NCBI GenBank assembly: GCA_964016885.1
Contig: OZ024756.1
Span: forward strand, 12,586,001 to 12,650,000
Source: Eledone cirrhosa
Taxonomy: Eukaryota
Reading direction: 5' to 3'
DNA: 64,000 nucleotides
Under the pieces are notes generated by a model. It searched no databases, was not told where the DNA came from, and saw nothing but the letters and a program-made list of their open reading frames with translations. Every line of letters starts with the position of its first letter. Within the stretch, counting starts at the first letter, position 1. A program made the position numbers and the translations under genes. Positions 12,484 through 62,938 of the stretch are shown one piece after another.

Positions 12484-12602
12484 TGCATGATAAACGGAAA
12501 AAATGAAACAAAATTTCATTTCTCACCCTTTGTTTACAAACACACCGAGCATTATAATAAGTGTTCGGTGAATCCATACGTACATATATATATGTGTGCA
12601 TG

Positions 12603-12662
<60 letters not shown>

Positions 12663-12878
12663 CTACTGTACGTCTGTATACATATGTGTATGTATGTATA
12701 CAGCCGTATGTATGTATACAGCCGTACTAAGAGTGAGAAATGAAATTTCGTTTCATTTTTTCCGTTTATCGTTTTCGGTGCACCCGGCCGATTAACTCAC
12801 TCGATATGCAAATTAGGCTGCTCAGCCGTTAATATGCATAAGGAAAGTATATACTTTCAGACGTTCAACCATCTGGCA

Positions 12879-12933
12879 GGAATGTATACGTTGCTGACGA
12901 TAGCTAATAAGCTTGAAACTAGTACAGCATTCC
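12879..12933 (+). ncRNA. type I hammerhead ribozyme
   Basis: GGAATG-tatacg-TTG / CTGACGA / T-AGCT-AATA-AGCT-T / GAAA-CTAG-TA / CAG-CATTCC. Confidence 0.75.
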
Positions 12934-13399
12934 TTTGTCAGTGTTGAACAAATGAGCAACGATGGTTGCTAGACACTGTACGGCTTAATACGGGAAGTTT
13001 GTTTACAAACACACCGAGCATTATAATAAATGTTCGGTGAATCCATACGTACATATATATATGTGTGCACGTATTTATATATATATATATACATACTACT
13101 GTACGTCTGTATACATATGTGTATGTACGTGTACATACTTATATTTAAGTAACAGCCGTACTAAGAGTGAGAAATGAAATTTTGTTTCATTTTTTCCGTT
13201 TATATATATATATATAAATGGAAAAAATGAAATTTCATTTCTCACTCTTAGTACGGCTGTCACCTTAAATAGAAGTATGTACACGTACATACATATATGT
13301 GTACAGACGTATGTATATTATCGTTTTCGGTACGCCCGGCCGACTAACTCACTCGATATGCAAATTAGACTGCTCAGCCGTTAATATGCATAAGGAAAG

Positions 13400-13853
13400 T
13401 GTAGTAAGAGTTGCCTCCCCTGCCACGACAATCGAATCGCTGTTCTCTAGACAGGAAGTAGGTGGAGTCGCTTCCCTTTGGGATTGACCAGACTCCCTAG
13501 TGGTCACTTCCGGTCAACAGATATAAAAGGAGCGGTTTACCACGAGATCTCTCTCTCGCCTCCTGATTCCTGAAGTGGTAACATCTTCGACCATAGCTTG
13601 TGATTCCTTCTGGACGACCCTTTCGTTACCAAGCACAATGCAGCTTGCAGCCTGAGATGAGAGCGCCAAGATGTTTCTACCAACTTCAGAATTGTATTAT
13701 TACCATCGGGTAACAAACCCTTATATTATATGCCTTTTGACTTCTATGAAGTAAAACTTTATTACACACACACACACCAGTATTTACTGTCTTTTATATT
13801 ATGTTGCATGTACACCGATACCTATTTCCTAAAGTGGTGACCCCCGACGTGAT
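13400..13853 (+). mobile_element. LTR of an LTR retrotransposon plus tRNA-Trp primer-binding site
   Basis: Starts TGTAGT; TATAAAA near 13522; AGTAAA near 13750; ends cctaaa-g-TGGTGACCC(C)CGACGTGAT, complementary to the 3' 18 nt of eukaryotic tRNA-Trp. Confidence 0.85.
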
Positions 13854-14160
13854 ATATACTTTCAAACATTCAATCGACTGACAGGAAGGTATACGGTGCT
13901 GATGACAGCTAGAAACTAGTTCATCGTTCCTTTGTCAGTGTTGAACAAAAGGGAAACGATGGTTGCTGAACACTGTACGGCTAATAATTTGGGCTGTTTG
14001 TTTACAAACAAACTGAGCATTATAATAAATGTTCGGTAAACCCATACGTACATATATATATGTGTGCATGTATGTATGTATATACATACTACTGTTCGTC
14101 TGTATACATATATGTATGTACGTATACATACTTATATATATATATATATATATATAGGAT

Positions 14161-15139: not shown

Positions 15140-18100
15140 ATAAAACCCAGTCTCTCACAATCAGTCATTATACCAATAAAACCCCTCACATTCAGTCATT
15201 ATACCAATAAAACAGTCTCTCACATTCAGTCATTATACCAATAAAACCCAGTCTCTCACATTCAGTCATTATACCAATAAAACCCCTCACATTCAGTCAT
15301 TATACCAATAAAACAGTCTCTCACATTCAGTCATTATACCAATAAAACCCAGTTTCTCACATTCACTCATTATACTAATAAAACAGTCTCTCACATTCAG
15401 TCATTATACCAATAAAACCCAGTCTCTCACATTCAGTCATTATACTAATAAAACCCAGTCTCTCACATTCAGTCATTATACCAATAAAACCCAGTCTCTC
15501 ACATTCAGTCATTATACCAATAAAACCCAGTCTCTCACATTCAGTCATTATACCAATAAAACCCAGTCTCTCACATTCAGTTATTATACTAATAAAACCC
15601 AGTCTCTCACATTCAGTCATTATACCAATAAAACCCAGTCTCTCACATTCAGTCATTATACCAATAAAACCTAGTCTCTCACATTCACTCATTATACTAA
15701 TAAAACAGTCTCTCACATTCAGTCATTATACCAATAAAACCCAGTCTCTCACATTCACTCATTATACCAATAAAACCCAGTCTCTCACATTCAGTCATTA
15801 TACTAATAAAACCCAGTCTCTCACATTCAGTCATTATACCAATAAAACAGTCTCTCACATTCAGTCATTATACTAATAAAACCCAGTCTCTCACATTCAG
15901 TCATTATACTAATAAAACCCAGTCTCTCACATTCAGTCATTATACTAATAAAACAGTCTCTCACATTCAGTCATTATACCAATAAAACCCAGTCTCTCAC
16001 ATTCAGTCATTATACTAATAAAACAGTCTCTCACATTCAGTCATTATACTAATAAAACCCAGTCTCTCACATTCAGTCATTATACCAATAAAACCCAGTC
16101 TCTCACATTCTGTCATTATACTAATAAAACAGTCTCTCACATTCAGTCATTATACTAATAAAACCCAGTCTCTCACATTCAGTCATTATACCAATAAAAC
16201 CCAGTCTCTCACATTCAGTCATTATACTAATAAAACAGTCTCTCACATTCAGTCATTATACCAATAAAACCCAGTCTCTCACATTCAGTCATTATACTAA
16301 TAAAACAGTCTCTCACATTCAGTCATTATACTAATAAAACCCAGTCTCTCACATTCAGTCATTATACTAAAAAAACCCAGTCTCTCACATTCAGTCATTA
16401 TACTAATAAAACAGTCTCTCACATTCAGTCATTATACTAATAAAACCCAGTCTCTCACATTCAGTCATTATACCAATAAAACCCGTCTCTCACATTCAGT
16501 CATTATACTAATAAAACCCAGTCTCTCACATTCAGTCATTATACCAATAAAACCCAGTCTCTCACATTCACTCATTATACCAATAAAACCCAGTCTCTCA
16601 CATTCAGTCATTATACTAATAAAACAGTCTCTCACATTCAGTCATTATACTAATAAAACCCAGTCTCTCACATTCAATCATTATACTAATAAAACCCAGT
16701 CTCTCACATTCAGTCATTATACTAATAAAACAGTCTCTCACATTCACTCATTATACCAATAAAACCCAGTCTCTCACATTCAGTCATTATACCAATAAAA
16801 CAGTCTCTCACATTCAGTCATTATACCAATAAAACCCAGTCTCTCACATTCAGTCATTATACCAATAAAACCCAGTCTCTCACATTCAGTCATTATACTA
16901 ATAAAACCAGTAATGTTATACTAATAAAGTACCAGTAATTCACATTCAGTCATTATACCAATAAAACAGTCTCTCACATTCACTCATTATACCAATAAAA
17001 CCCAGTCTCTCACATTCAGTCATTATACTAATAAAACAGTCTCTCACATTCAGTCATTATACTAATAAAACCCAGTCTCTCACATTCAATCATTATACTA
17101 ATAAAACCCAGTCTCTCACATTCAGTCATTATACCAATAAAACAGTCTCTCACATTCAGTCATTATACTAATAAAACCCAGTCTCTCACATTCACTCATT
17201 ATACCAATAAAACCCAGTCTCTCACATTCAGTCATTATACCAATAAAACCCAGTCTCTCACATTCACTCATTATACCAATAAAACCCAGTCTCTCACATT
17301 CAGTCATTATACTAATAAAACAGTCTCTCACATTCAGTCATTATACTAATAAAACCCAGTCTCTCACATTCAATCATTATACTAATAAAACCCAGTCTCT
17401 CACATTCAGTCATTATACTAATAAAACAGTCTCTCACATTCACTCATTATACCAATAAAACCCAGTTTCTCACATTCAGTCATTATACCAATAAAACAGT
17501 CTCTCACATTCAGTCATTATACCAATAAAACCCAGTCTCTCACATTCAGTCATTATACTAATAAAACCAGTAATGTTATACTAATAAAGTACCAGTAATT
17601 CACATTCAGTCATTATACCAATAAAACAGTCTCTCACATTCAGTCATTATACTAATAAAACCCAATCTCTCACATTCACTCATTATACCAATAAAACCCG
17701 TCTCTCACATTCAGTCATTATACTAATAAAACCCAGTCTCTCACATTCAGTCATTATACTAATAAAACCCAGTCTCTCACATTCACTCATTATACCAATA
17801 AAACCCAGTCTCTCACATTCAGTCATTATACTAATAAAACAGTCTCTCACATTCACTCATTATACCAATAAAACCCAGTCTCTCACATTCAGTCATTATA
17901 CTAATAAAACAGTCTCTCACATTCACTCATTATACCAATAAAACCCAGTCTCTCACATTCAGTCATTATACTAATAAAACAGTCTCTCACATTCACTCAT
18001 TATACTAATAAAACAGTCTCTCACATTCAGTCATTATACCAATAAAACCCAGTCTCTCACATTCAGTCATTATACTAATAAAACCCAGTCTCTCACATTC

Positions 18101-19553
18101 ACTCATTATACCAATAAAACCCAGTCTCTCACATTCACTCATTATACCAATAAAACCCAGTCTCTCACATTCAGTCATTATACCAATAAAACCCAGTCTC
18201 TCACATTCACTCATTATACCAATAAAACCCAGTCTCTCACATTCAGTCATTATACTAATAAAACAGTCTCTCACATTCAGTCATTATACCAATAAAACCC
18301 AGTCTCTCACATTCAGTCATTATACCAATAAAACAGTCTCTCACATTCAGTCATTATACCAATAAAACCCAGTCTCTCACATTCAGTCATTATACTAATA
18401 AAACCCAGTCTCTCACATTCACTCATTATACCAATAAAACCCAGTCTCTCACATTCAGTCATTATACTAATAAAACCCAGTCTCTCACATTCACTCATTA
18501 TACCAATAAAACCCAGTCTCTCACATTCAGTCATTATACCAATAAAACCCAGTCTCTCACATTCACTCATTATACTAATAAAACCCAGTCTCTCACATTC
18601 ACTCATTATACCAATAAAACCCAGTCTCTCACATTCAGTCATTATACCAATAAAACCCAGTCTCTCACATTCAGTCATTATACCAATAAAACCCAGTCTC
18701 TCACATTCACTCATTATACTAATAAAACCCAGTCTCTCACATTCAGTCATTATACCAATAAAACCCAGTCTCTCACATTCAGTCATTATACCAATAAAAC
18801 CCAGTCTCTCACATTCACTCATTATACTAATAAAACCCAGTCTCTCACATTCACTCATTATACCAATAAAACCCAGTCTCTCACATTCAGTCATTATACC
18901 AATATAACCCAGTCTCTCACATTCAGTCATTATACCAATAAAACCCAGTCTCTCACATTCACTCATTATACCAATAAAACCCAGTCTCTCACATTCAGTC
19001 ATTATACCAATAAAACCCAGTCTCTCACATTCACTCATTATACTAATAAAACCCAGTCTCTCACATTCACTCATTATACCAATAAAACCCAGTCTCTCAC
19101 ATTCACTCATTATACCAATAAAACAGTCTCTCACATTCAGTCATTATACCAATAAAACAGTCTCTCACATTCAGTCATTCGGAGGATTGGCAGTATCGGT
19201 AGAGGGTCGGACGCCATGCTTTCCAGCATAGTTACGTCCCTTTACGATCTGAGTTCAAATCCCGCCGAGGTTGACTTTGCCTTTCATCCTTACGGGGTCG
19301 ATAAAATAAAGTACCAGTAATGCACTGTGTAATTGCTGGCCTTGTGCCAAACGTAGAAACAATTATACTAATAAAAGCCAGTCTCTCACATTCAGTCATT
19401 ATACCAATAAAACAGTCACTCACATTCAGTCATTATACTAATAAAACCCAGTCTCTCACATTTACTCATTATACTAATAAAACCCAGTCTCTCACATTTA
19501 CTCATTATACCAATAAAACAGTCTCTCACATTCAGTCATTATACCAATAAAAC
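15140..19553. repeat. 36/34-bp satellite
   Basis: Unit cagtcattataccaataaaa(cc)cagtctctcacatt over about 4.4 kb. Confidence 0.99.
19180..19365 (+). mobile_element. SINE family A inserted in the satellite
   Basis: Near-full copy interrupting a monomer at catt|atac. Confidence 0.9.
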
Positions 19554-28772: not shown

Positions 28773-28967
28773 AGGAATTGGGTGCTGACCAGAAAACTAA
28801 GAGTTGAGAGAGGGTGGAAGAAGACACAGTCAAGTACCGGAGCTGCATTGTAATAATGTTTATATACAACTGTTTGTCTTGCAATGATACATATTTGCAA
28901 TCACTAGTGCTATAATAATGCATGTACAGCTACTAGTGACTTAATGATACACACATACAGTTAATAG

Positions 28968-31900
28968 TTCTGTAATGGTACATATACAGATACTAATGCT
29001 GTAATGGTACATATACAGTCACTAATGCTGTAATGGTACATATACAGATACTAATGCTGTAATGGTACATATACAGTCACTAATGCTGTAATGGTACATA
29101 TACAGATACTAATGCTGTAATGGTACATATACAGTCACTAATGCTGTAATGGTACATATACAGATACTAATGCTGTAATGGTACATATACAGATACTAAT
29201 GCTGTAATGGTACATATACAGTCACTAATGCTGTAATGGTACATATACAGATACTAATGCTGTAATGGTACATATACAGATACTAATGCTGTAATGGTAC
29301 ATGTACAGATACTAATGCTGTAATGGTACATATACAGATACTAATGCTGTAATGGTACATGTACAGATACTAATGCTGTAATGGTACATATACAGATACT
29401 AATGCTGTAATGGTACATATACAGTCACTAATGCTGTAATGGTACATATACAGTCACTAATGCTGTAATGGTACATATACAGTCACTAATGCTGTAATGG
29501 TACATATACAGTCACTAATGCTGTAATGGTACATATACAGTCACTAATGCTGTAATGGTACATATACAGATACTAATGCTGTAATGGTACATATACAGAT
29601 ACTAATGCTGTAATGGTACATATACAGATACTAATGCTGTAATGGTACATATACAGTCACTAATGCTGTAATGGTACATATACAGATACTAATGCTGTAA
29701 TGGTACATATACAGTCACTAATGCTGTAATGGTACATATACAGTCACTAATGCTGTAATGGTACATATACAGTCACTAATGCTGTAATGGTACATGTACA
29801 GATACTAATGCTGTAATGGTACATGTACAGATACTAATGCTGTAATGGTACATATACAGTCACTAATGCTGTAATGGTACATATACAGATACTAATGCTG
29901 TAATGGTACATGTACAGATACTAATGCTGTAATGGTACATGTACAGATACTAATGCTGTAATGGTACATATACAGTCACTAATGCTGTAATGGTACATAT
30001 ACAGATACTAATGCTGTAATGGTACATATACAGTCACTAATGCTGTAATGGTACATATACAGTCACTAATGCTGTAATGGTACATATACAGATACTAATG
30101 CTGTAATGGTACATATACAGATACTAGTGCTGTAATGGTACATATACAGATACTAATGCTGTAATGGTACATATACAGATACTAATGCTGTAATGGTACA
30201 TATACAGATACTAATGCTGTAATGGTACATATACAGATACTAATGCTGTAATGGTACATATACAGATACTAATGCTGTAATGGTACATGTACAGATACTA
30301 ATGCTGTAATGGTACATATACAGATACTAATGCTGTAATGGTACATATACAGTCACTAATGCTGTAATGGTACATATACAGTCACTAATGCTGTAATGGT
30401 ACATATACAGTCACTAATGCTGTAATGGTACATATACAGATACTAATGCTGTAATGGTACATATACAGATACTAATGCTGTAATGGTACATATACAGATA
30501 CTAATGCTGTAATGGTACATATACAGATACTAATGCTGTAATGGTACATATACAGTCACTAATGCTGTAATGGTACATATACAGTCACTAATGCTGTAAT
30601 GGTACATATACAGTCACTAATGCTGTAATGGTACATATACAGTCACTAATGCTGTAATGGTACATATACAGATACTAATGCTGTAATGGTACATATACAG
30701 ATACTAATGCTGTAATGGTACATATACAGATACTAATGCTGTAATGGTACATATACAGTCACTAATGCTGTAATGGTACATATACAGTCACTAATGCTGT
30801 AATGGTACATATACAGTCACTAATGCTGTAATGGTACATATACAGTCACTAATGCTGTAATGGTACATATACAGTCACTAATGCTGTAATGGTACATATA
30901 CAGATACTAATGCTGTAATGGTACATATACAGTCACTAATGCTGTAATGGTACATATACAGTCACTAATGCTGTAATGGTACATATACAGTCACTAATGC
31001 TGTAATGGTACATATACAGTCACTAATGCTGTAATGGTACATATACAGATACTAATGCTGTAATGGTACATATACAGTCACTAATGCTGTAATGGTACAT
31101 ATACAGTCACTAATGCTGTAATGGTACATATACAGTCACTAATGCTGTAATGGTACATATACAGTCACTAATGCTGTAATGGTACATATACAGTCACTAA
31201 TGCTGTAATGGTACATATACAGATACTAATGCTGTAATGGTACATATACAGATACTAATGCTGTAATGGTACATATACAGATACTAATGCTGTAATGGTA
31301 CATATACAGTCACTAATGCTGTAATGGTACATATACAGTCACTAATGCTGTAATGGTACATATACAGTCACTAATGCTGTAATGGTACATATACAGTCAC
31401 TAATGCTGTAATGGTACATATACAGTCACTAATGCTGTAATGGTACATATACAGATACTAATGCTGTAATGGTACATATACAGTCACTAATGCTGTAATG
31501 GTACATATACAGTCACTAATGCTGTAATGGTACATATACAGTCACTAATGCTGTAATGGTACATATACAGTCACTAATGCTGTAATGGTACATATACAGT
31601 CACTAATGCTGTAATGGTACATATACAGATACTAATGCTGTAATGGTACATATACAGATACTAATGCTGTAATGGTACATATACAGATACTAATGCTGTA
31701 ATGGTACATATACAGTCACTAATGCTGTAATGGTACATATACAGATACTAATGCTGTAATGGTACATATACAGATACTAATGCTGTAATGGTACATATAC
31801 AGTCACTAATGCTGTAATGGTACATATACAGTCACTAATGCTGTAATGGTACATATACAGTCACTAATGCTGTAATGGTACATATACAGATACTAATGCT

Positions 31901-32990
31901 GTAATGGTACATATACAGTCACTAATGCTGTAATGGTACATATACAGATACTAATGCTGTAATGGTACATATACAGTCACTAATGCTGTAATGGTACATA
32001 TACAGTCACTAATGCTGTAATGGTACATATACAGTCACTAATGCTGTAATGGTACATATACAGTCACTAATGCTGTAATGGTACATATACAGTCACTAAT
32101 GCTGTAATGGTACATATACAGATACTAATGCTGTAATGGTACATGTACAGATACTAATGCTGTAATGGTACATGTACAGATACTAATGCTGTAATGGTAC
32201 ATATACAGTCACTAATGCTGTAATGGTACATATACAGTCACTAATGCTGTAATGGTACATATACAGTCACTAATGCTGTAATGGTACATATACAGATACT
32301 AATGCTGTAATGGTACATATACAGATACTAATGCTGTAATGGTACATATACAGATACTAATGCTGTAATGGTACATATACAGATACTAATGCTGTAATGG
32401 TACATATACAGTCACTAATGCTGTAATGGTACATATACAGTCACTAATGCTGTAATGGTACATATACAGATACTAATGCTGTAATGGTACATATACAGAT
32501 ACTAATGCTGTAATGGTACATATACAGATACTAATGCTGTAATGGTACATATACAGATACTAATGCTGTAATGGTACATATACAGATACTAATGCTGTAA
32601 TGGTACATATACAGTCACTAATGCTGTAATGGTACATATACAGTCACTAATGCTGTAATGGTACATATACAGTCACTAATGCTGTAATGGTACATATACA
32701 GTCACTAATGCTGCAATGGTACATATACAGTCACTAATGCTGTAATGGTACATATACAGTCACTAATGCTGTAATGGTACATATACAGTCACTAATGCTG
32801 TAATGGTACATATACAGATACTAATGCTGTAATGGTACATATACAGTCACTAATGCTGTAATGGTACATATACAGTCACTAATGCTGTAATGGTACATAT
32901 ACAGATACTAATGCTGTAATGGTACATATACAGATACTAATGCTGTAATGGTACATATACAGTCACTAATGCTGTAATGGTACATATACA
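28968..32990. repeat. 29-bp satellite with two main monomer variants
   Basis: catatacag(at/tc)actaatgctgtaatggta over about 4 kb; diverged monomers continue to about 35670. Confidence 0.99.
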
Positions 32991-33634: not shown

Positions 33635-34214
33635 TAAAAATACGTATTTAAGAAAGCCACAACAATGCAAAGGGAAATCTCGAGGTAGGAAGTGAAATAT
33701 AGATAGGAAAAACAGGTGAAAGTGAAAATTGAGAGAGACAAAGATGAAAACAAAACAAAGGTAGAAGGGTTACCGTAGTAGAGATTTAATCCCAATATTT
33801 CGGGCTCACGCCCATCAACGGGGGAAAGTTCCAAAAGGGGGGGAACAGGCCAAGCGGAGAAAGTTGTGATGTCGTTAAGACAGGAATGCCGTTAAGGGGG
33901 GGAACAGGCCAAGCGGAGAAAGTTGTGATGTCGTTAAGACAGGAATGCCGTTGATAACGGCATTCCTGTCTTAACGACATCACAACTTTCTCCGCTTGGC
34001 CTGTTCCCCCCCTTTTGGAACTTTCCCCCGTTGATGGGCGCGAGCCCGAAATATTGGGATTAAATCTCTACTACGGTAACCCTTCTACCTTTGTTTTGTT
34101 TTCATCTTTGTCTCTCTCAATTTTCACTTTCACCTGTTTTTCCTATCTATCTTTCACTTCCTACCTCGAGATTTCCCTCTGCATTGTTGTGGCTTTCTTA
34201 AATACGTATTTTTA
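33635..34214. repeat. large fold-back palindrome
   Basis: About 260-bp near-perfect arms centred on 33953-33955; the left arm has an extra duplication of about 58 bp. Confidence 0.97.
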
Positions 34215-36975: not shown

Positions 36976-37271
36976 TAAAGAAAAAGAGATGAAATTGAAA
37001 ATGCAACTGGAGTCTTATTTTTTTTTTAAATATATATATTTATTTGGTTCCTTTACCGGTTTCGCAGTTCTTCTGCTTTTCAAAAGGTGAGTTGAGATGG
37101 AGGGTCTGTGGTTTTTCTCACAGATGTGAGAAAAACCACAGACCCTCCATCTCAACTCACCTTTTGAAAAGCAGAAGAACTGCGAAACCGGTAAAGGAAC
37201 CAAATAAATATATATATTTAAAAAAAAAATAAGACTCCAGTTGCATTTTCAATTTCATCTCTTTTTCTTTA
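36976..37271. repeat. perfect fold-back palindrome (147-bp arms, 2-nt loop)
   Basis: Centre at 37123-37124. Confidence 0.98.
37160..37197 (+). ncRNA. minimal type I hammerhead ribozyme, U3-A8 core variant (mirror copy at 37050-37087, -)
   Basis: CCTT / TTGAAAA / GCAG-AAGAA-CTGC / GAAA-CCGG-TA / AAGG. Confidence 0.72.
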
Positions 37272-40139: not shown

Positions 40140-44487
<4,348 letters not shown>

Positions 44488-57302: not shown

Positions 57303-60300
57303 CCAGTTATCCCAGCAATGGCTGGACATGTCCTTACAGTCACAGACTGGTCACTACTCTGCCAGTTATACCAGCAATGGTTGGACATGTCCTTACAATC
57401 ACAGACTGGTCACTACTCTGCCAGTTATCCCAGCAATGGTTGGACATGTCCTTACAATCACAGACTGGTCACTACTCTGCCAGTTATCCCTGCAATGGTT
57501 GGACATGTCCTTACAGTCACTGACTGGTCACTACTCTGCCACTAATCTCAGCAATGGTTAGACATGTCCTTACAGTCACAGACTGGTCACTACTCTGCCA
57601 GTTATCCCAGCAATGGTTGGACATGTCCTTACAGTCACAGACTGGTCACTACTCTGCCAGTTATCCCAGCAATGGTTAGACATGTCCTTACAATCACAGA
57701 CTGGTCATTATTCTGCCAGTTATCCCTGCAGTGGCTAGACATGACCTTACAATCACAGACTGGTCATTATTCTGCCAGTTATCCCAGCAATGGTTGGACA
57801 TGTCTTTACAGTCACAGATTGGTCACTTCTCTGCCACTAATCTCAGCAATGGTTGGACATGTCCTTACAGTCACAGACTGGTCACTACTCTGCCACTAAT
57901 CTCAGCAATGGTTGGACATGTCCTTACAGTCACAGACTGGTCACTACTCTGCCACTAATCTCAGCAATGGTTGGACATGTCCTTACAGTCACAGACTGGT
58001 CACTACTCTGCCACTAATCTCAGCAATGGTTGGACATGTCCTTACAGTCATAGACTGGTCACTACTCTGCCACTAATCTCAGCAATGGTTGGACATGTCC
58101 TTACAGTCACAGACTGGTCACTACTCTGCCAGTTATCCTAGCAATGGTTGGACATGTCTTTACAGTCACAGATTGGTCACTACTCTGCCACTAATCTCAG
58201 CAATGGTTGGACATGTCCTTACAGTCACAGACTGGTCACTACTCTGCCAGTTATCCCAGCAATGGTTGGACATGTCCTTACAGTCACAGACTGGTCACTA
58301 CTCTGCCAGTTATCCCAGCAATGGTTGGACATGTCCTTACAGTCACAAACTGGTCACTACTCTGCCAGTTATCCCAGCAATGGTTGGACATGTCCTTACA
58401 GTCACATACTGGTCACTACTTTGCCAGTTATCCCAGCAATGGTTGGACATGTCATTACAGTCACTGACTGGTCACTACTCTGCCAGTTATCCCAGCAATG
58501 GTTAGACATGTCCTTACAGTCACAGACTGGTCACTACTCTGCCAGTTATCCCTGCAGTGGCTAGACATGACCTTACAATCACAGACTGGTCATTATTCTG
58601 CCAGTTATACCAGCAATGGTTGGACATGTCCTTACAGTCACAGACTGGTCACTACTCTGCCACTAATCTCAGCAATGGTTGGACATGTCCTTACAATCAC
58701 AGACTGGTCACTACTCTGCCAGTTATCCCAGCAATGGTTGGACATGTCCTTACAATCACAGACTGGTCACTACTCTGCCAGTTATCCCTGCAATGGTTGG
58801 ACATGTCCTTACAGTCACTGACTGGTCACTACTCTGCCACTAATCTCAGCAATGGTTAGACATGTCCTTACAGTCACAGACTGGTCACTACTCTGCCAGT
58901 TATCCCAGCAATGGTTGGACATGTCCTTACAGTCACAGACTGGTCACTACTCTGCCAGTTATCCCAGCAATGGTTAGACATGTCCTTACAATCACAGACT
59001 GGTCATTATTCTGCCAGTTATCCCTGCAGTGGCTAGACATGACCTTACAATCACAGACTGGTCATTATTCTGCCAGTTATCCCAGCAATGGTTGGACATG
59101 TCTTTACAGTCACAGATTGGTCACTTCTCTGCCACTAATCTCAGCAATGGTTGGACATGTCCTTACAGTCACAGACTGGTCACTACTCTGCCACTAATCT
59201 CAGCAATGGTTGGACATGTCCTTACAGTCACAGACTGGTCACTACTCTGCCACTAATCTCAGCAATGGTTGGACATGTCCTTACAGTCACAGACTGGTCA
59301 CTACTCTGCCACTAATCTCAGCAATGGTTGGACATGTCCTTACAGTCATAGACTGGTCACTACTCTGCCACTAATCTCAGCAATGGTTGGACATGTCCTT
59401 ACAGTCACAGACTGGTCACTACTCTGCCAGTTATCCTAGCAATGGTTGGACATGTCTTTACAGTCACAGATTGGTCACTACTCTGCCACTAATCTCAGCA
59501 ATGGTTGGACATGTCCTTACAGTCACAGACTGGTCACTACTCTGCCAGTTATCCCAGCAATGGTTGGACATGTCCTTACAGTCACAGACTGGTCACTACT
59601 CTGCCAGTTATCCCAGCAATGGTTGGACATGTCCTTACAGTCACAAACTGGTCACTACTCTGCCAGTTATCCCAGCAATGGTTGGACATGTCCTTACAGT
59701 CACATACTGGTCACTACTTTGCCAGTTATCCCAGCAATGGTTGGACATGTCATTACAGTCACTGACTGGTCACTACTCTGCCAGTTATCCCAGCAATGGT
59801 TAGACATGTCCTTACAGTCACAGACTGGTCACTACTCTGCCAGTTATCCCTGCAGTGGCTAGACATGACCTTACAATCACAGACTGGTCATTATTCTGCC
59901 AGTTATACCAGCAATGGTTGGACATGTCCTTACAGTCACAGACTGGTCACTACTCTGCCACTAATCTCAGCAATGGTTGGACATGTCCTTACAGTCACAG
60001 ACTGGTCACTACTCTGCCAGTTATCCCAGCAATGGTTAGACATGTCCTTACAGTCACAGACTGGTCACTACTCTGCCAGTTATCCCAGCAATGGTTAGAC
60101 ATGTCCTTACAGTCACAGACTGGTCACTACTCTGCCACTAATCTCAGCAATGGTTGGACATGTCCTTACAGTCACATACTGGTCACTACTCTGCCAGTTA
60201 TCCCAGCAATGGTTGGACATGTCATTACAGTCACAGACTGGTCACTACTCTGCCAGTTATCCCAGCAATGGTTAGACATGTCCTTACAGTCACAGACTGG

Positions 60301-62637
60301 TCACTACTCTGCCAGTTATCCCAGCAATGGTTAGACATGTCCTTACAGTCACAGACTGGTCACTACTCTGCCACTAATCTCAGCAATGGTTGGATATGTC
60401 CTTACAGTCACATACTGGTCACTACTCTGCCAGTTATCCCAGCAATGGTTGGACATGTCATTACAGTCACAGACTGGTCACTACTCTGCCAGTTATCCCA
60501 GCAATGGTTAGACATGTCCTTACAATCACAGACTGGTCATTATTCTGCCAGTTATACCAGCAATGGTTGGACATGTCCTTACAGTCACTACTCTGCCAGT
60601 TATCCTAGCAATGGTTGGACATGTCATTACAATCACAGACTGGTCACTACTCTGCCACTAATCTCAGCAATGGTTGGACATGTCCTTACAGTCACAGACT
60701 GGTCACTACTCTGCCAGTTATCCCAGCAATGGTTGGACATGTCCTTACAGTCATAGACTGGTCACTACTCTGCCAGTTATCCCAGCAATGGTTGGACATG
60801 TCCTTACAGCCATAGACTGGTCACTACTCTGCCAGTTATCCCAGCAATGGTTGGACATGTCCTTACAGCCATAGACTGGTCACTACTCTGCCAGTTATCC
60901 CAGCAATGGTTGGACATGTCCTTACAATCACAGACTGGTCACTACTCTGCCAGTTATCCCAGCAATGGTTGGACATGTCCTTACAGCCATAGACTGGTCA
61001 CTACTCTGCCAGTTATCCCAGCAATGGTTGGACATGTCCTTACAGCCATAGACTGGTCACTACTCTGCCAGTTATCCCAGCAATGGTTGGACATGTCCTT
61101 ACAGCCATAGACTGGTCACTACTCTGCCACTAATCTCAGCAATGGTTGGACATGTCCTTACAATCATAGACTGGTCACTACTCTGCCAGTTATCTCTGCA
61201 ATGGTTGGACATGTCCTTACAGTCACAGACTGGTCACTACTCTGCCAGTTATCCCAGCAATGGTTGGACATGTCCTTACAGCCATAGACTGGTCACTACT
61301 CTGCCACTAATCTCAGCAATGGTTGGACATGTCCTTACAGCCATAGACTGGTCACTACTCTGCCAGTTATCCCAGCAATGGTTGGACATGTCCTTACAAT
61401 CACAGACTGGTCACTACTCTGCCAGTTATCCCAGCAATGGTTGGACATGTCCTTACAGCCATAGACTGGTCACTACTCTGCCAGTTATCCCAGCAATGGT
61501 TGGACATGTCCTTACAGCCATAGACTGGTCACTACTCTGCCAGTTATCCCAGCAATGGTTGGACATGTTTTTACAGTCACAGACTGGTCACTACTCTGCC
61601 ACTAATCTCAGCAATGGTTGGACATGTCATTACAATCACAGACTGGTCACTACTCTGCCAGTTATCCCAGCAATGGTTGGACATGTCCTTACAGCCATAG
61701 ACTGGTCACTACTCTGCCAGTTATCCCAGCAATGGTTGGACATGTCCTTACAGCCATAGACTGGTCACTACTCTGCCAGTTATCCCAGCAATGGTTGGAC
61801 ATGTCCTTACAGCCATAGACTGGTCACTACTCTGCCACTAATCTCAGCAATGGTTGGACATGTCCTTACAGTCACAGACTGGTCACTACTCTGCCACTAA
61901 TCTCAGCAATGGTTGGACATGTCCTTACAGTCACAGACTGGTCACTACTCTGCCACTAATCTCAGCAATGGTTGGACATGTCATTACAATCACAGACTGG
62001 TCACTACTCTGCCACTAATCTCAGCAATGGTTGGACATGTCATTACAATCACAGACTGGTCACTACTCTGCCAGTTATCCCAGCAATGGTTGGACATGTC
62101 CTTACAGCCATAGACTGGTCACTACTCTGCCAGTTATCCCTGCAATGGTTGGACATGTCCTTACAATCACAGACTGGTCACTACTCTGCCAGTTATCCCA
62201 GCAATGGTTGGACATGTCCTTACAGCCATAGACTGGTCACTACTCTGCCAGTTATCCCAGCAATGGTTGGACATGTCCTTACAGCCATAGACTGGTCACT
62301 ACTCTGCCAGTTATCCCTGCAATGGTTGGACATGTCCTTACAATCACAGACTGGTCACTACTCTGCCAGTAATCCCAGCAATGGTTGGACATGTCCTTAC
62401 AGCCATAGACTGGTCACTACTCTGCCAGTTATCCCAGCAATGGTTGGACATGTCCTTACAGCCATAGACTGGTCACTACTCTGCCAGTTATCCCTGCAAT
62501 GGTTGGACATGTCCTTACAATCACAGACTGGTCACTACTCTGCCAGTAATCCCAGCAATGGTTGGACATGTCCTTACAATCACAGACTGGTCACTACTCT
62601 GCCAGTTATCCCAGCAATGGCTGGACATGTCCTTACA
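57303..62637. repeat. 59-bp satellite with a 1298-bp (22-monomer) higher-order duplication
   Basis: Unit ccagttatcccagcaatggttggacatgtccttacagtcacagactggtcactactctg; identical ORF translations are offset by exactly 1298 bp. Confidence 0.99.
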
Positions 62638-62938
62638 GACACATTTTATTGTGGTGCCTACGCTAGGGAAGTTGTCATCTCTTTGGTATAGTTCTCCCTG
62701 GTCCTTTGTTTGGCAGGTTTTCTACGACAGGATGACCTTCCTATCATCAACCTCTTTACAGAGTGTACTGGGTGTGGTTATCAACTGGATCACCATACAT
62801 ACTGTTTTAGCTGTTCCAGCCATCCAGCTGAGGCCATGCTGGGCCATGGGCAAGACTAAATCAAAACGGGTTTTTGTGAAATATCAGTACGTAGAGTTGT
62901 TGTGTGAAGAAGAATTCACCCATCCAATGAACTGTACA

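What the first reader, a model, noticed from the sequence alone, without database searches (positions are those of the whole stretch)
13400..13853. LTR+PBS insertion without TSD: possible captured plus-strand strong-stop cDNA
Seen: the intact repeat unit reads ggaaagtatatactttca (12842-12859). In this unit it is split ggaaag|...|atatactttca by 454 bp that begin TGTAGT and end exactly at the last base of TGGTGACCC(C)CGACGTGAT. There is no target duplication, only a shared T, and the site lies within a 16-bp palindrome. Established: plus-strand strong-stop DNA is U3-R-U5 plus the 18 tRNA bases copied up to m1A58, whereas solo LTRs have a TSD and lack a PBS. Inference: a reverse-transcription intermediate was inserted independently of integrase, for example during break repair.
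Basis: partly seen in the sequence, partly recalled or inferred. Interest (0 to 1): 0.7.

Follow-up and report, generated by a model that had tools for sequence, protein, structure and literature searches.

The report
Half-inserted retrotransposon end, no target duplication
One end repeat of a jumping gene plus its primer site sits in a common genomic repeat without the usual target duplication, and because the primer site has the element's own spelling rather than the host tRNA's, it is likely a botched insertion (one end joined by the element's enzyme, the other by host repair), a known kind of accident.

Summary
Observation confirmed: 13400-13833 is a complete 434-bp LTR of a CsRn1-like Ty3/Gypsy family that normally makes 4-bp TSDs (17 of 20 two-LTR copies), followed by G and a tRNA-Trp PBS, in a high-copy repeat with no target base gained or lost. 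The proposed origin (free plus-strand strong-stop DNA, no integrase) is mostly not supported. The PBS is 19 nt with five C's; 57 of 57 tRNA-Trp-like matches lack the extra base; 0 of 12 family copies rearranged at the PBS have it, against 42 of 57 intact element junctions, and so does the nearest relative. The PBS is therefore likely element-encoded, not tRNA-copied. The nearest relative matches two bases further, giving a 3-nt microhomology (TAT), so the end is not fixed at base 18. The left end starts exactly at TG without the two cDNA-end bases. True tRNA-copied ends do exist elsewhere in this genome, and the scan has noted related joins on other pieces before. Interest 0.3.

The parts
12766..13203 (+). 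Intact unit of a dispersed high-copy non-coding repeat (class not determined); shows the empty target site
   Evidence: Self-BLAST; 1290 candidates genome-wide, the 39 best besides the window 97-99% identical; extents approximate
12843..12858 (.). Perfect 16-bp palindrome in the intact unit; a fixed feature of the repeat family
   Evidence: same site in 44 of 54 copies
13318..13399 (+). Left part of the interrupted host-repeat unit
   Evidence: 94% to 12766-12851; collinear with right part in L210, L211, L213
13396..13399 (+). AAAG: the 4 bp that a normal insertion would have duplicated; present on the left only
   Evidence: Family TSD is 4 bp in 17 of 20 two-LTR copies; no copy after the PBS
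13400..13833 (+). Complete 434-bp LTR of a CsRn1-like Ty3/Gypsy family, termini TG...AA (non-canonical AA end shared by the family)
   Evidence: 97.9% to the 3' LTR of L074, 97.7% to L075; end branch 0.012
13522..13528 (+). TATAAAA, likely the LTR TATA box (inferred from motif only)
13834..13835 (+). GT: spacer G plus first PBS base, the dinucleotide that integrase would trim from a right cDNA end (inferred by analogy with HIV)
   Evidence: Same G in 30 of 30 loci; PMC2797772 passages
13835..13853 (+). tRNA-Trp primer binding site, 19 nt, five-C (element-type) form
   Evidence: Complement of tRNA-Trp genes L114/L115 plus CCA except one extra C; 57 of 57 tRNA-like matches lack the extra base
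13853..13855 (+). TAT microhomology shared by element (last PBS base + 2 internal bases of the nearest relative) and target
   Evidence: L074 and L062 match the window through 13855
13853..14140 (+). Right part of the interrupted host-repeat unit, resuming with no base lost
   Evidence: 84% to 12848-13147; 2497 candidates, best 92-96%

Best explanation
The insert is the left end (LTR plus element-type PBS) of a CsRn1-like Gypsy retrotransposon, likely left by a one-ended integration in which integrase joined the U3 end and host end-joining sealed the PBS end at the integrase nick. Shown: complete LTR starting exactly at TG, five-C PBS, no TSD, no target loss, 3-nt overlap TAT. Inferred: joining the U3 end nicks the bottom target strand between AAAG and TATATA, leaving a host 3' end exactly where host sequence resumes; the cDNA was incomplete or broken at the PBS, most simply because plus-strand synthesis had not gone on after second-strand transfer, so the plus strand ended in the PBS while paired to a minus strand with the element's own five-base run; the two 3' ends paired over 1-3 bases (T or TAT), were filled in, and the minus-strand spelling was fixed. 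The piece has no coding capacity and likely no function beyond a possible stray promoter.
For: Left end precise, without the 2 nt that precede 3' LTRs (AA 9, AC 7, AT 3, AG 1 of 20; AA in the four nearest relatives); in yeast 40 of 56 NHEJ-captured 3' LTR pieces keep such extra bases (PMC11372161, passages). Host resumes exactly at the predicted nick. Five-C PBS matches element genomes (42 of 57 intact junctions have 5 or more; nearest relative L074 has 5) and not the tRNA (0 of 57) or PBS-rearranged copies (0 of 12; Fisher p 2e-6, or 1e-4 after collapsing five copies with a shared junction). Both PBS lengths occur in short-read contigs of another data set, so the difference is not a long-read homopolymer error. 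No other piece of the element lies in the 64-kb window. L081, a young two-LTR copy with identical LTRs, has a normal left end, no TSD and GTG after its right LTR, as expected of one-ended integration. Precedent: HIV proviruses with intact 5' junction and GT+PBS, microhomology and absent or short repeats at the 3' junction (PMC2797772, passages); one-ended integration with truncated viral end and short homology (PMC5041404, passages).
Against: It is a single case: the only one of 31 exact junctions in its lineage with a full LTR and PBS joined straight to host DNA. Within the window's own lineage the marker is weaker: 11 of 25 intact copies have 5 or more, against 0 of 9 rearranged (p 0.017) or 0 of 5 independent ones (p 0.13). 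One-base slips in the run do occur (three intact copies have six positions), so a tRNA copy could have gained a C. One of 20 3' LTRs is preceded by AG, as the window is, and the target GGAAAG matches the PPT end of L074 at 4 of 6 bases. In Ty1/Ty3 the tRNA-copied strong-stop DNA is a dead end and is not transferred (PMC5371799, section 2.2), which would remove the reason for a stop at the PBS. The final sequence cannot by itself separate repair during integration from a later deletion. No read evidence bridges the junction.
Confidence: 0.5

Rival explanations
1. A full element integrated normally with an AAAG duplication; a later microhomology-mediated deletion (TAT) removed the internal region, the 3' LTR and the right TSD copy.
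For: Explains the precise TG, the element-type five-C PBS and the 3-nt microhomology; truncated copies exist in the family (L080, L075, L088, L089).
Against: Needs two coincidences: the deletion starts at the one TAT at the PBS end out of 76 in the nearest relative's internal region and ends exactly behind the TSD with no flank lost.
Confidence: 0.2
2. A full-length cDNA whose right end kept a tRNA-copied PBS integrated one-ended; recombination between 5' LTR+PBS and 3' LTR+PBS then left one LTR+PBS, the heteroduplex being resolved to the five-C form.
For: Matches the HIV precedent (PMC2797772); solo LTRs with TSD occur in the family (L011, L012, L025); explains precise left end, no TSD and end at the PBS.
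Against: No unrecombined precursor seen: of the two PPT-preceded LTRs followed by a PBS, L133 is a tandem element and L054/L076 runs into the partner family; L277, which looked like such a case by position, belongs to another family. Needs the minor outcome at the C run.
Confidence: 0.1
3. One reading: a free plus-strand strong-stop DNA (U3-R-U5 plus 18 tRNA-copied bases) was captured at a break without integrase.
For: Anatomy fits roughly; dead-end strong-stop DNA accumulates in Ty particles (PMC5371799); cDNA capture by NHEJ is known in yeast (PMC11372161); LTR ends running 32-49 nt into antisense tRNA-Trp are fixed in this genome in several families (10 of the 12 loci picked).
Against: All 12 comparators and all 12 PBS-rearranged family copies have the four-position run; the window has five. 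Needs a one-base slip, removal of exactly the two terminal bases on the left, and a break repaired with no loss.
Confidence: 0.1
4. Templated insertion during break repair, copied from a 1-LTR circle or tandem element (PPT-LTR-PBS-internal) using short homologies at both ends.
For: Target GGAAAG matches the PPT end at 4 of 6 bases plus the shared T; right microhomology TAT; gives an element-type PBS and no TSD.
Against: The base next to TG is mismatched; nothing explains why copying should start at the LTR's first base and stop at the PBS among many equally good short matches.
Confidence: 0.07
5. Assembly artefact joining two repeats.
For: Both partners are repeats; no listed contig or read bridges the junction.
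Against: The host unit is collinear on both sides to the base, and the LTR has private differences from every other scored copy (at most 97.9%).
Confidence: 0.03

Closest known systems
Aberrant (one-ended) retroviral integration: HIV proviruses with GT+PBS at the 3' junction (PMC2797772, passages read) and HIV/ASLV one-bad-end integrations (PMC5041404, passages read; the ASLV primary paper PMC1317513 was not held)
   Same: Normal integrase-type left junction, PBS sequence and 1-4-nt microhomology at the right junction, TSD absent
   Different: Those are whole or long proviruses from experiments in cultured cells; here only one LTR is left, it is a fixed genomic copy of a Gypsy retrotransposon, and the PBS is element-type rather than tRNA-copied; host duplications or deletions usual there are absent here
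CsRn1 lineage of Ty3/Gypsy elements (features as listed in PMC3630058, passages read)
   Same: tRNA-Trp PBS, CHCC gag motif, GPY motif, 4-bp TSD, RT-RNase H-integrase order in full copies of the family
   Different: LTR ends in AA rather than CA; many copies carry a PBS one base longer than the tRNA complement
NHEJ capture of Ty1 cDNA fragments at double-strand breaks in yeast (PMC11372161, passages read)
   Same: LTR-region DNA inserted without TSD, with microhomology
   Different: Captured pieces mostly keep cDNA-only terminal bases (40 of 56) and come from all regions; here the left end is exactly the processed terminus
Dead-end plus-strand strong-stop DNA and non-inherited PBS of Ty1/Ty3 (PMC5371799, section 2.2 read; Lauermann and Boeke 1994/1997 not held, known from that review and recall)
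   Same: A PBS that mismatches the primer tRNA persists in element copies (31 of 32 intact junctions in the sister lineage)
   Different: In the window's lineage four- and five-C forms are interleaved on the LTR tree (11 of 25 long), which looks like partial inheritance or repeated slipping; the window insert carries the element form, so it is unlikely to be the dead-end product
Truncated LTR elements and TSD-less solo LTRs from illegitimate recombination (plant genomes; search listing only, and recall)
   Same: One LTR plus PBS, no TSD, short homology at the break
   Different: Here host sequence resumes with zero loss at the predicted integrase nick

Membership tests
Ty3/Gypsy LTR retrotransposon | Paired LTRs around pol in the order RT, RNase H, integrase | tested here: met
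   L062 ORF: RVT_1, RT_RNaseH, Integrase_H2C2, rve; paired LTRs 5.4-5.7 kb apart in unexpanded copies. Tested on relatives; the window piece is non-coding
CsRn1 lineage | PBS complementary to tRNA-Trp | tested here: met
   (one extra C in the window form)
CsRn1 lineage | CHCC gag motif (Cx2Hx9Cx3C; spacing recalled) | tested here: met
   6 of 6 copies scanned
CsRn1 lineage | GPY motif after integrase core | tested here: met
   6 of 6 copies scanned
CsRn1 lineage | 4-bp TSD | tested here: met
   17 of 20 two-LTR copies exact; L063 shifted, L065 one mismatch, L081 none
CsRn1 lineage | RT phylogeny groups with CsRn1 | not tested
   No reference RT set fetched
Ordinary solo LTR | Single LTR flanked by TSD, no PBS | tested here: not met
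   PBS present, AAAG not repeated
Captured free plus-strand strong-stop DNA | U3-R-U5 followed by PBS sequence | tested here: met
Captured free plus-strand strong-stop DNA | PBS is an exact copy of the primer tRNA 3' end | tested here: not met
   Five C's against four in 57 of 57 tRNA-like matches; the 3 five-G matches are not tRNA genes
Captured free plus-strand strong-stop DNA | 3' end fixed at tRNA base 18 | tested here: inconclusive
   Breakpoint lies anywhere in 13852/3-13855/6 because of the TAT overlap
Captured free plus-strand strong-stop DNA | Unprocessed 5' end (2 nt before TG) or ragged end | tested here: not met
   TG follows target GGAAAG directly; nearest relatives have AA before TG; 1 of 20 copies has AG
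One-ended (aberrant) integration | One precise integrase-type junction | tested here: met
   Left junction at TG
One-ended (aberrant) integration | Other end truncated or unprocessed, joined by short homology, TSD absent or abnormal | tested here: met
   TAT overlap, no TSD
One-ended (aberrant) integration | Both junctions formed in the same event (no earlier complete allele) | not testable with these tools
   No relatives of G000 are held; laid runs did not resolve the locus

The most novel reading that the evidence does not exclude
The insert is a germ-line fossil of a stalled second-strand-transfer intermediate: a double-stranded left LTR with a mismatched (tRNA-copy/element) PBS duplex whose plus strand had not been extended, caught by integrase at one end and sealed at the integrase nick. 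The four-C/five-C difference would then be a natural tracer that shows, from an assembly alone, which PBS copies came from the tRNA and which from the element, and that sister lineages of one family differ in whether they inherit the primer sequence (31 of 32 long in one, 11 of 25 in the other).
Probability: 0.25. Interest if true: 0.5.

Novelty: new member of a known kind. Interest (0 to 1): 0.3.

Why it matters
As a single locus it is an ordinary damaged retrotransposon copy. Its use is methodological: the one-base PBS difference separates tRNA-copied from element-encoded primer sites, which lets reverse-transcription and integration accidents known from yeast and retroviral experiments be counted in a natural animal genome, and it warns that 'LTR+PBS without TSD' is not by itself proof of strong-stop capture. 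If the stalled-transfer reading holds, it would bear on whether metazoan Gypsy elements inherit their PBS as retroviruses do or as Ty1/Ty3 do.

Tried and rejected
Repeat finder on the whole window was swamped by satellites and gave nothing on the locus. Sequencing runs: best holders had at most 0.49 of the words; joints that skip the insert can come from any of the many host-repeat paralogues and show no empty allele; no listed piece bridged the right junction (24 of 160 shown); X1 lacks depth over nearly all of the LTR; none of this says the junction is absent. L054/L076 first looked like a 3' LTR+PBS joined to host DNA but runs into the partner family. L277 lies 5.7 kb behind a five-C 5' LTR and looked like a tRNA-copied PBS behind the same element's 3' LTR, but it belongs to another family. 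A hidden TATA-type TSD was rejected: the left flank ends in AAAG. A rebuilt inverted U3 tip after the PBS, as in L299, is absent from the window. Cruciform breakage at the palindrome was not favoured: it is 16 bp, AT-rich, family-wide and not centred on the left junction, although the right junction can be read as lying at its centre with 3 host bases lost. A five-G tRNA-Trp was looked for and not found. Rows left out of the C-run tally: a third lineage with a T spacer (L127, L136, L137, L144, L146), degenerate or partner-type sites (L131, L166, L167), other families (L121, L124, L132, L135, L140, L141, L142, L145, L148, L152, L160, L169, L170), the duplicate L076, L040 (inverted partner of L041), nine sister-lineage junctions seen only as text (all five-position, followed by the usual internal start), and 88 of 188 two-mismatch matches that one search did not list. 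Literature searches gave no listing that describes this structure for an animal Gypsy element; only titles, abstract starts and the cited passages were seen, no supplements, so this is not proof of absence.

Full report
1. The observation. The window comes from a 3.0-Gb animal assembly (G000). At 12842-12859 an intact repeat unit reads GGAAAGTATATACTTTCA, with a perfect 16-bp palindrome at 12843-12858; a second unit is split after GGAAAG (13399) by 13400-13853. The repeat is dispersed and high-copy (1290 and 2497 candidates). In 54 of 58 other copies both anchors were found; all 54 have the same length across the site and 44 have the exact sequence. So, counting T13853 as target, nothing of the target was duplicated or lost.

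2. What the insert is. A search with the 454 bases gave 716 candidates; the 40 scored end at about position 434 or 454. Flank inspection puts the LTR at 13400-13833, TG...AA, followed in 5' LTRs by one G and the PBS. Full copies carry RT, RNase H and integrase in Gypsy order, a CHCC motif and a GPY motif in 6 of 6 copies scanned and an exact 4-bp TSD in 17 of 20 two-LTR copies. With the tRNA-Trp PBS these are the CsRn1 features listed in PMC3630058 (passages); an RT tree was not made. The nearest LTRs are the 3' LTRs of L074 (97.9%) and L075 (97.7%). No other part of the element lies in the window.

3. The PBS is the element's, not the tRNA's. Two tRNA-Trp genes were confirmed; with CCA their 3' end gives an 18-nt PBS with four C's, the window has 19 nt with five. 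All 57 matches to an anticodon-to-acceptor pattern have the same length, and the three five-G matches of a second pattern are not tRNA genes. Among intact 5' LTR-PBS-internal junctions, 31 of 32 in the sister lineage and 11 of 25 in the window's lineage have five or more positions in this run; among 12 family copies rearranged at the PBS none has (Fisher p 2e-6; 1e-4 with five shared-junction copies counted once; within the window's lineage alone 0.017, or 0.13 after collapsing). The nearest relative L074 has five C's. Ten of 12 picked loci of this and other families run 32-49 nt into antisense tRNA, and all 12 have four positions. Short-read contigs of another data set hold both lengths. A free strong-stop DNA takes its PBS from the tRNA (PMC5371799 section 2.2), so it should have four C's. 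Against this argument: one-base slips occur (three intact copies with six positions), and four- and five-C forms are interleaved on the tree of the window's lineage. Rows left out of the tally are listed under Tried and rejected.

4. The right end is not fixed at base 18. L074 and L062 continue after the PBS with AT and match the window to 13855. The target begins TAT at 13853. The junction therefore has a 3-nt microhomology, and the breakpoint lies anywhere from one base inside the PBS to two bases past it. The PBS end is still a hot spot: of 31 exact LTR-end/PBS junctions, 20 are intact, 10 are rearranged (8 at base 18, 2 inside the PBS) and join other retroelement sequence, and the window is the only one joined straight to host DNA.

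5. The left end looks processed by integrase. 3' LTRs are preceded by AA (9), AC (7), AT (3) or AG (1) of 20, AA in the nearest relatives; by analogy with retroviruses these are the bases of the unprocessed cDNA end (inference). The window has target GGAAAG directly before TG. In yeast, 40 of 56 NHEJ-captured 3' LTR pieces kept cDNA-only bases (PMC11372161, passages). The evidence is moderate: trimming can remove two bases, and GGAAAG resembles the PPT end at 4 of 6 bases.

6. Mechanism. Joining a U3 end attacks the bottom target strand, here between AAAG and TATATA, and leaves a host 3' end exactly where host sequence resumes in the window (inference from integrase chemistry). If the second end is not joined by integrase, host repair uses short homology, often with a truncated element end (PMC5041404, passages); HIV proviruses with a normal 5' junction and GT+PBS, microhomology and no proper TSD at the 3' junction are on record (PMC2797772, passages). 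L081 looks like such an event in this family. One-ended integration of a cDNA incomplete at the PBS explains the precise TG, zero target loss, the microhomology and, if second-strand transfer had happened, the five-C form. I give it 0.5. Normal integration with later deletion explains the same bases but needs two coincidences (0.2). A full cDNA with a retained PBS later reduced by LTR-LTR recombination lacks observed precursors (0.1). Templated copying from a 1-LTR circle (0.07) and misassembly (0.03) remain. These weights are judgement, not computed. Laid runs could not show the junction or an empty allele.

7. Novelty and score. Every part of the best explanation has precedent; seven literature searches (listings and cited passages only) gave no description of this exact case in an animal Gypsy element, which does not prove absence. 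The boldest reading left open is a fossil of a stalled strand-transfer intermediate, with the four/five-C difference as a tracer of primer inheritance (probability 0.25, interest 0.5). Overall: new member of a known kind, interest 0.3.

Noticed in passing
L139/L296, L124/L295, L300-L307, L103, L104, L108, L110, L111, L113: LTR ends of several tRNA-Trp-primed families continue 32-49 nt into the antisense of tRNA-Trp, past base 18, before other DNA; all have the four-position run. Likely copying past the usual methyl-A58 stop (position recalled). The scan has noted this before.
   Followed up: partly
L096, L098-L102, L105, L106, L109, L112: One family carries an inherited PBS extended by about 8-10 nt of tRNA complement followed by a shared internal sequence.
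   Followed up: no
L031, L032, L039-L041, L077: Family LTR + four-C PBS joined head-on to an inverted partner-family LTR through a 3-nt overlap; L077 has a regular 4-bp TSD. May share descent.
   Followed up: partly
L068, L078, L079: Internal deletions that start at or inside the PBS (four-C form) and land in pol; L068 and L078 have regular TSDs. Likely misdirected second-strand transfer.
   Followed up: partly
L081/L298: Young two-LTR copy with identical LTRs, no TSD and GTG after the right LTR: a likely one-ended integration of a full element.
   Followed up: partly
L074 1400-7793: Chimera: partner-family LTR, extended PBS, a second five-C PBS, then this family's internal region and the 3' LTR closest to the window's.
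   Followed up: partly
L121/L299, L132: Another family's LTR+PBS followed by an inverted 8-nt copy of its own LTR start, which would rebuild an end that integrase can use.
   Followed up: partly
G000:C4:353394881-353486314 and C4:277407639-277440858: Clusters of tRNA-Trp gene-like copies, about 40 in the first; two genes of the second confirmed by ARAGORN.
   Followed up: partly
window 12489-14156: The host repeat occurs as tandem and inverted partial units here and at other loci; its class was not determined.
   Followed up: no
window 33635-34214 and 36976-37271: Near-perfect long inverted repeats (260-nt arms with 60-nt spacer; 147-nt arms with 2-nt spacer).
   Followed up: no
window 15140-19179, 28951-32990, 40141-44487, 57303-62643: Large satellite arrays (36, 29, 2 and 59 bp units).
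   Followed up: no
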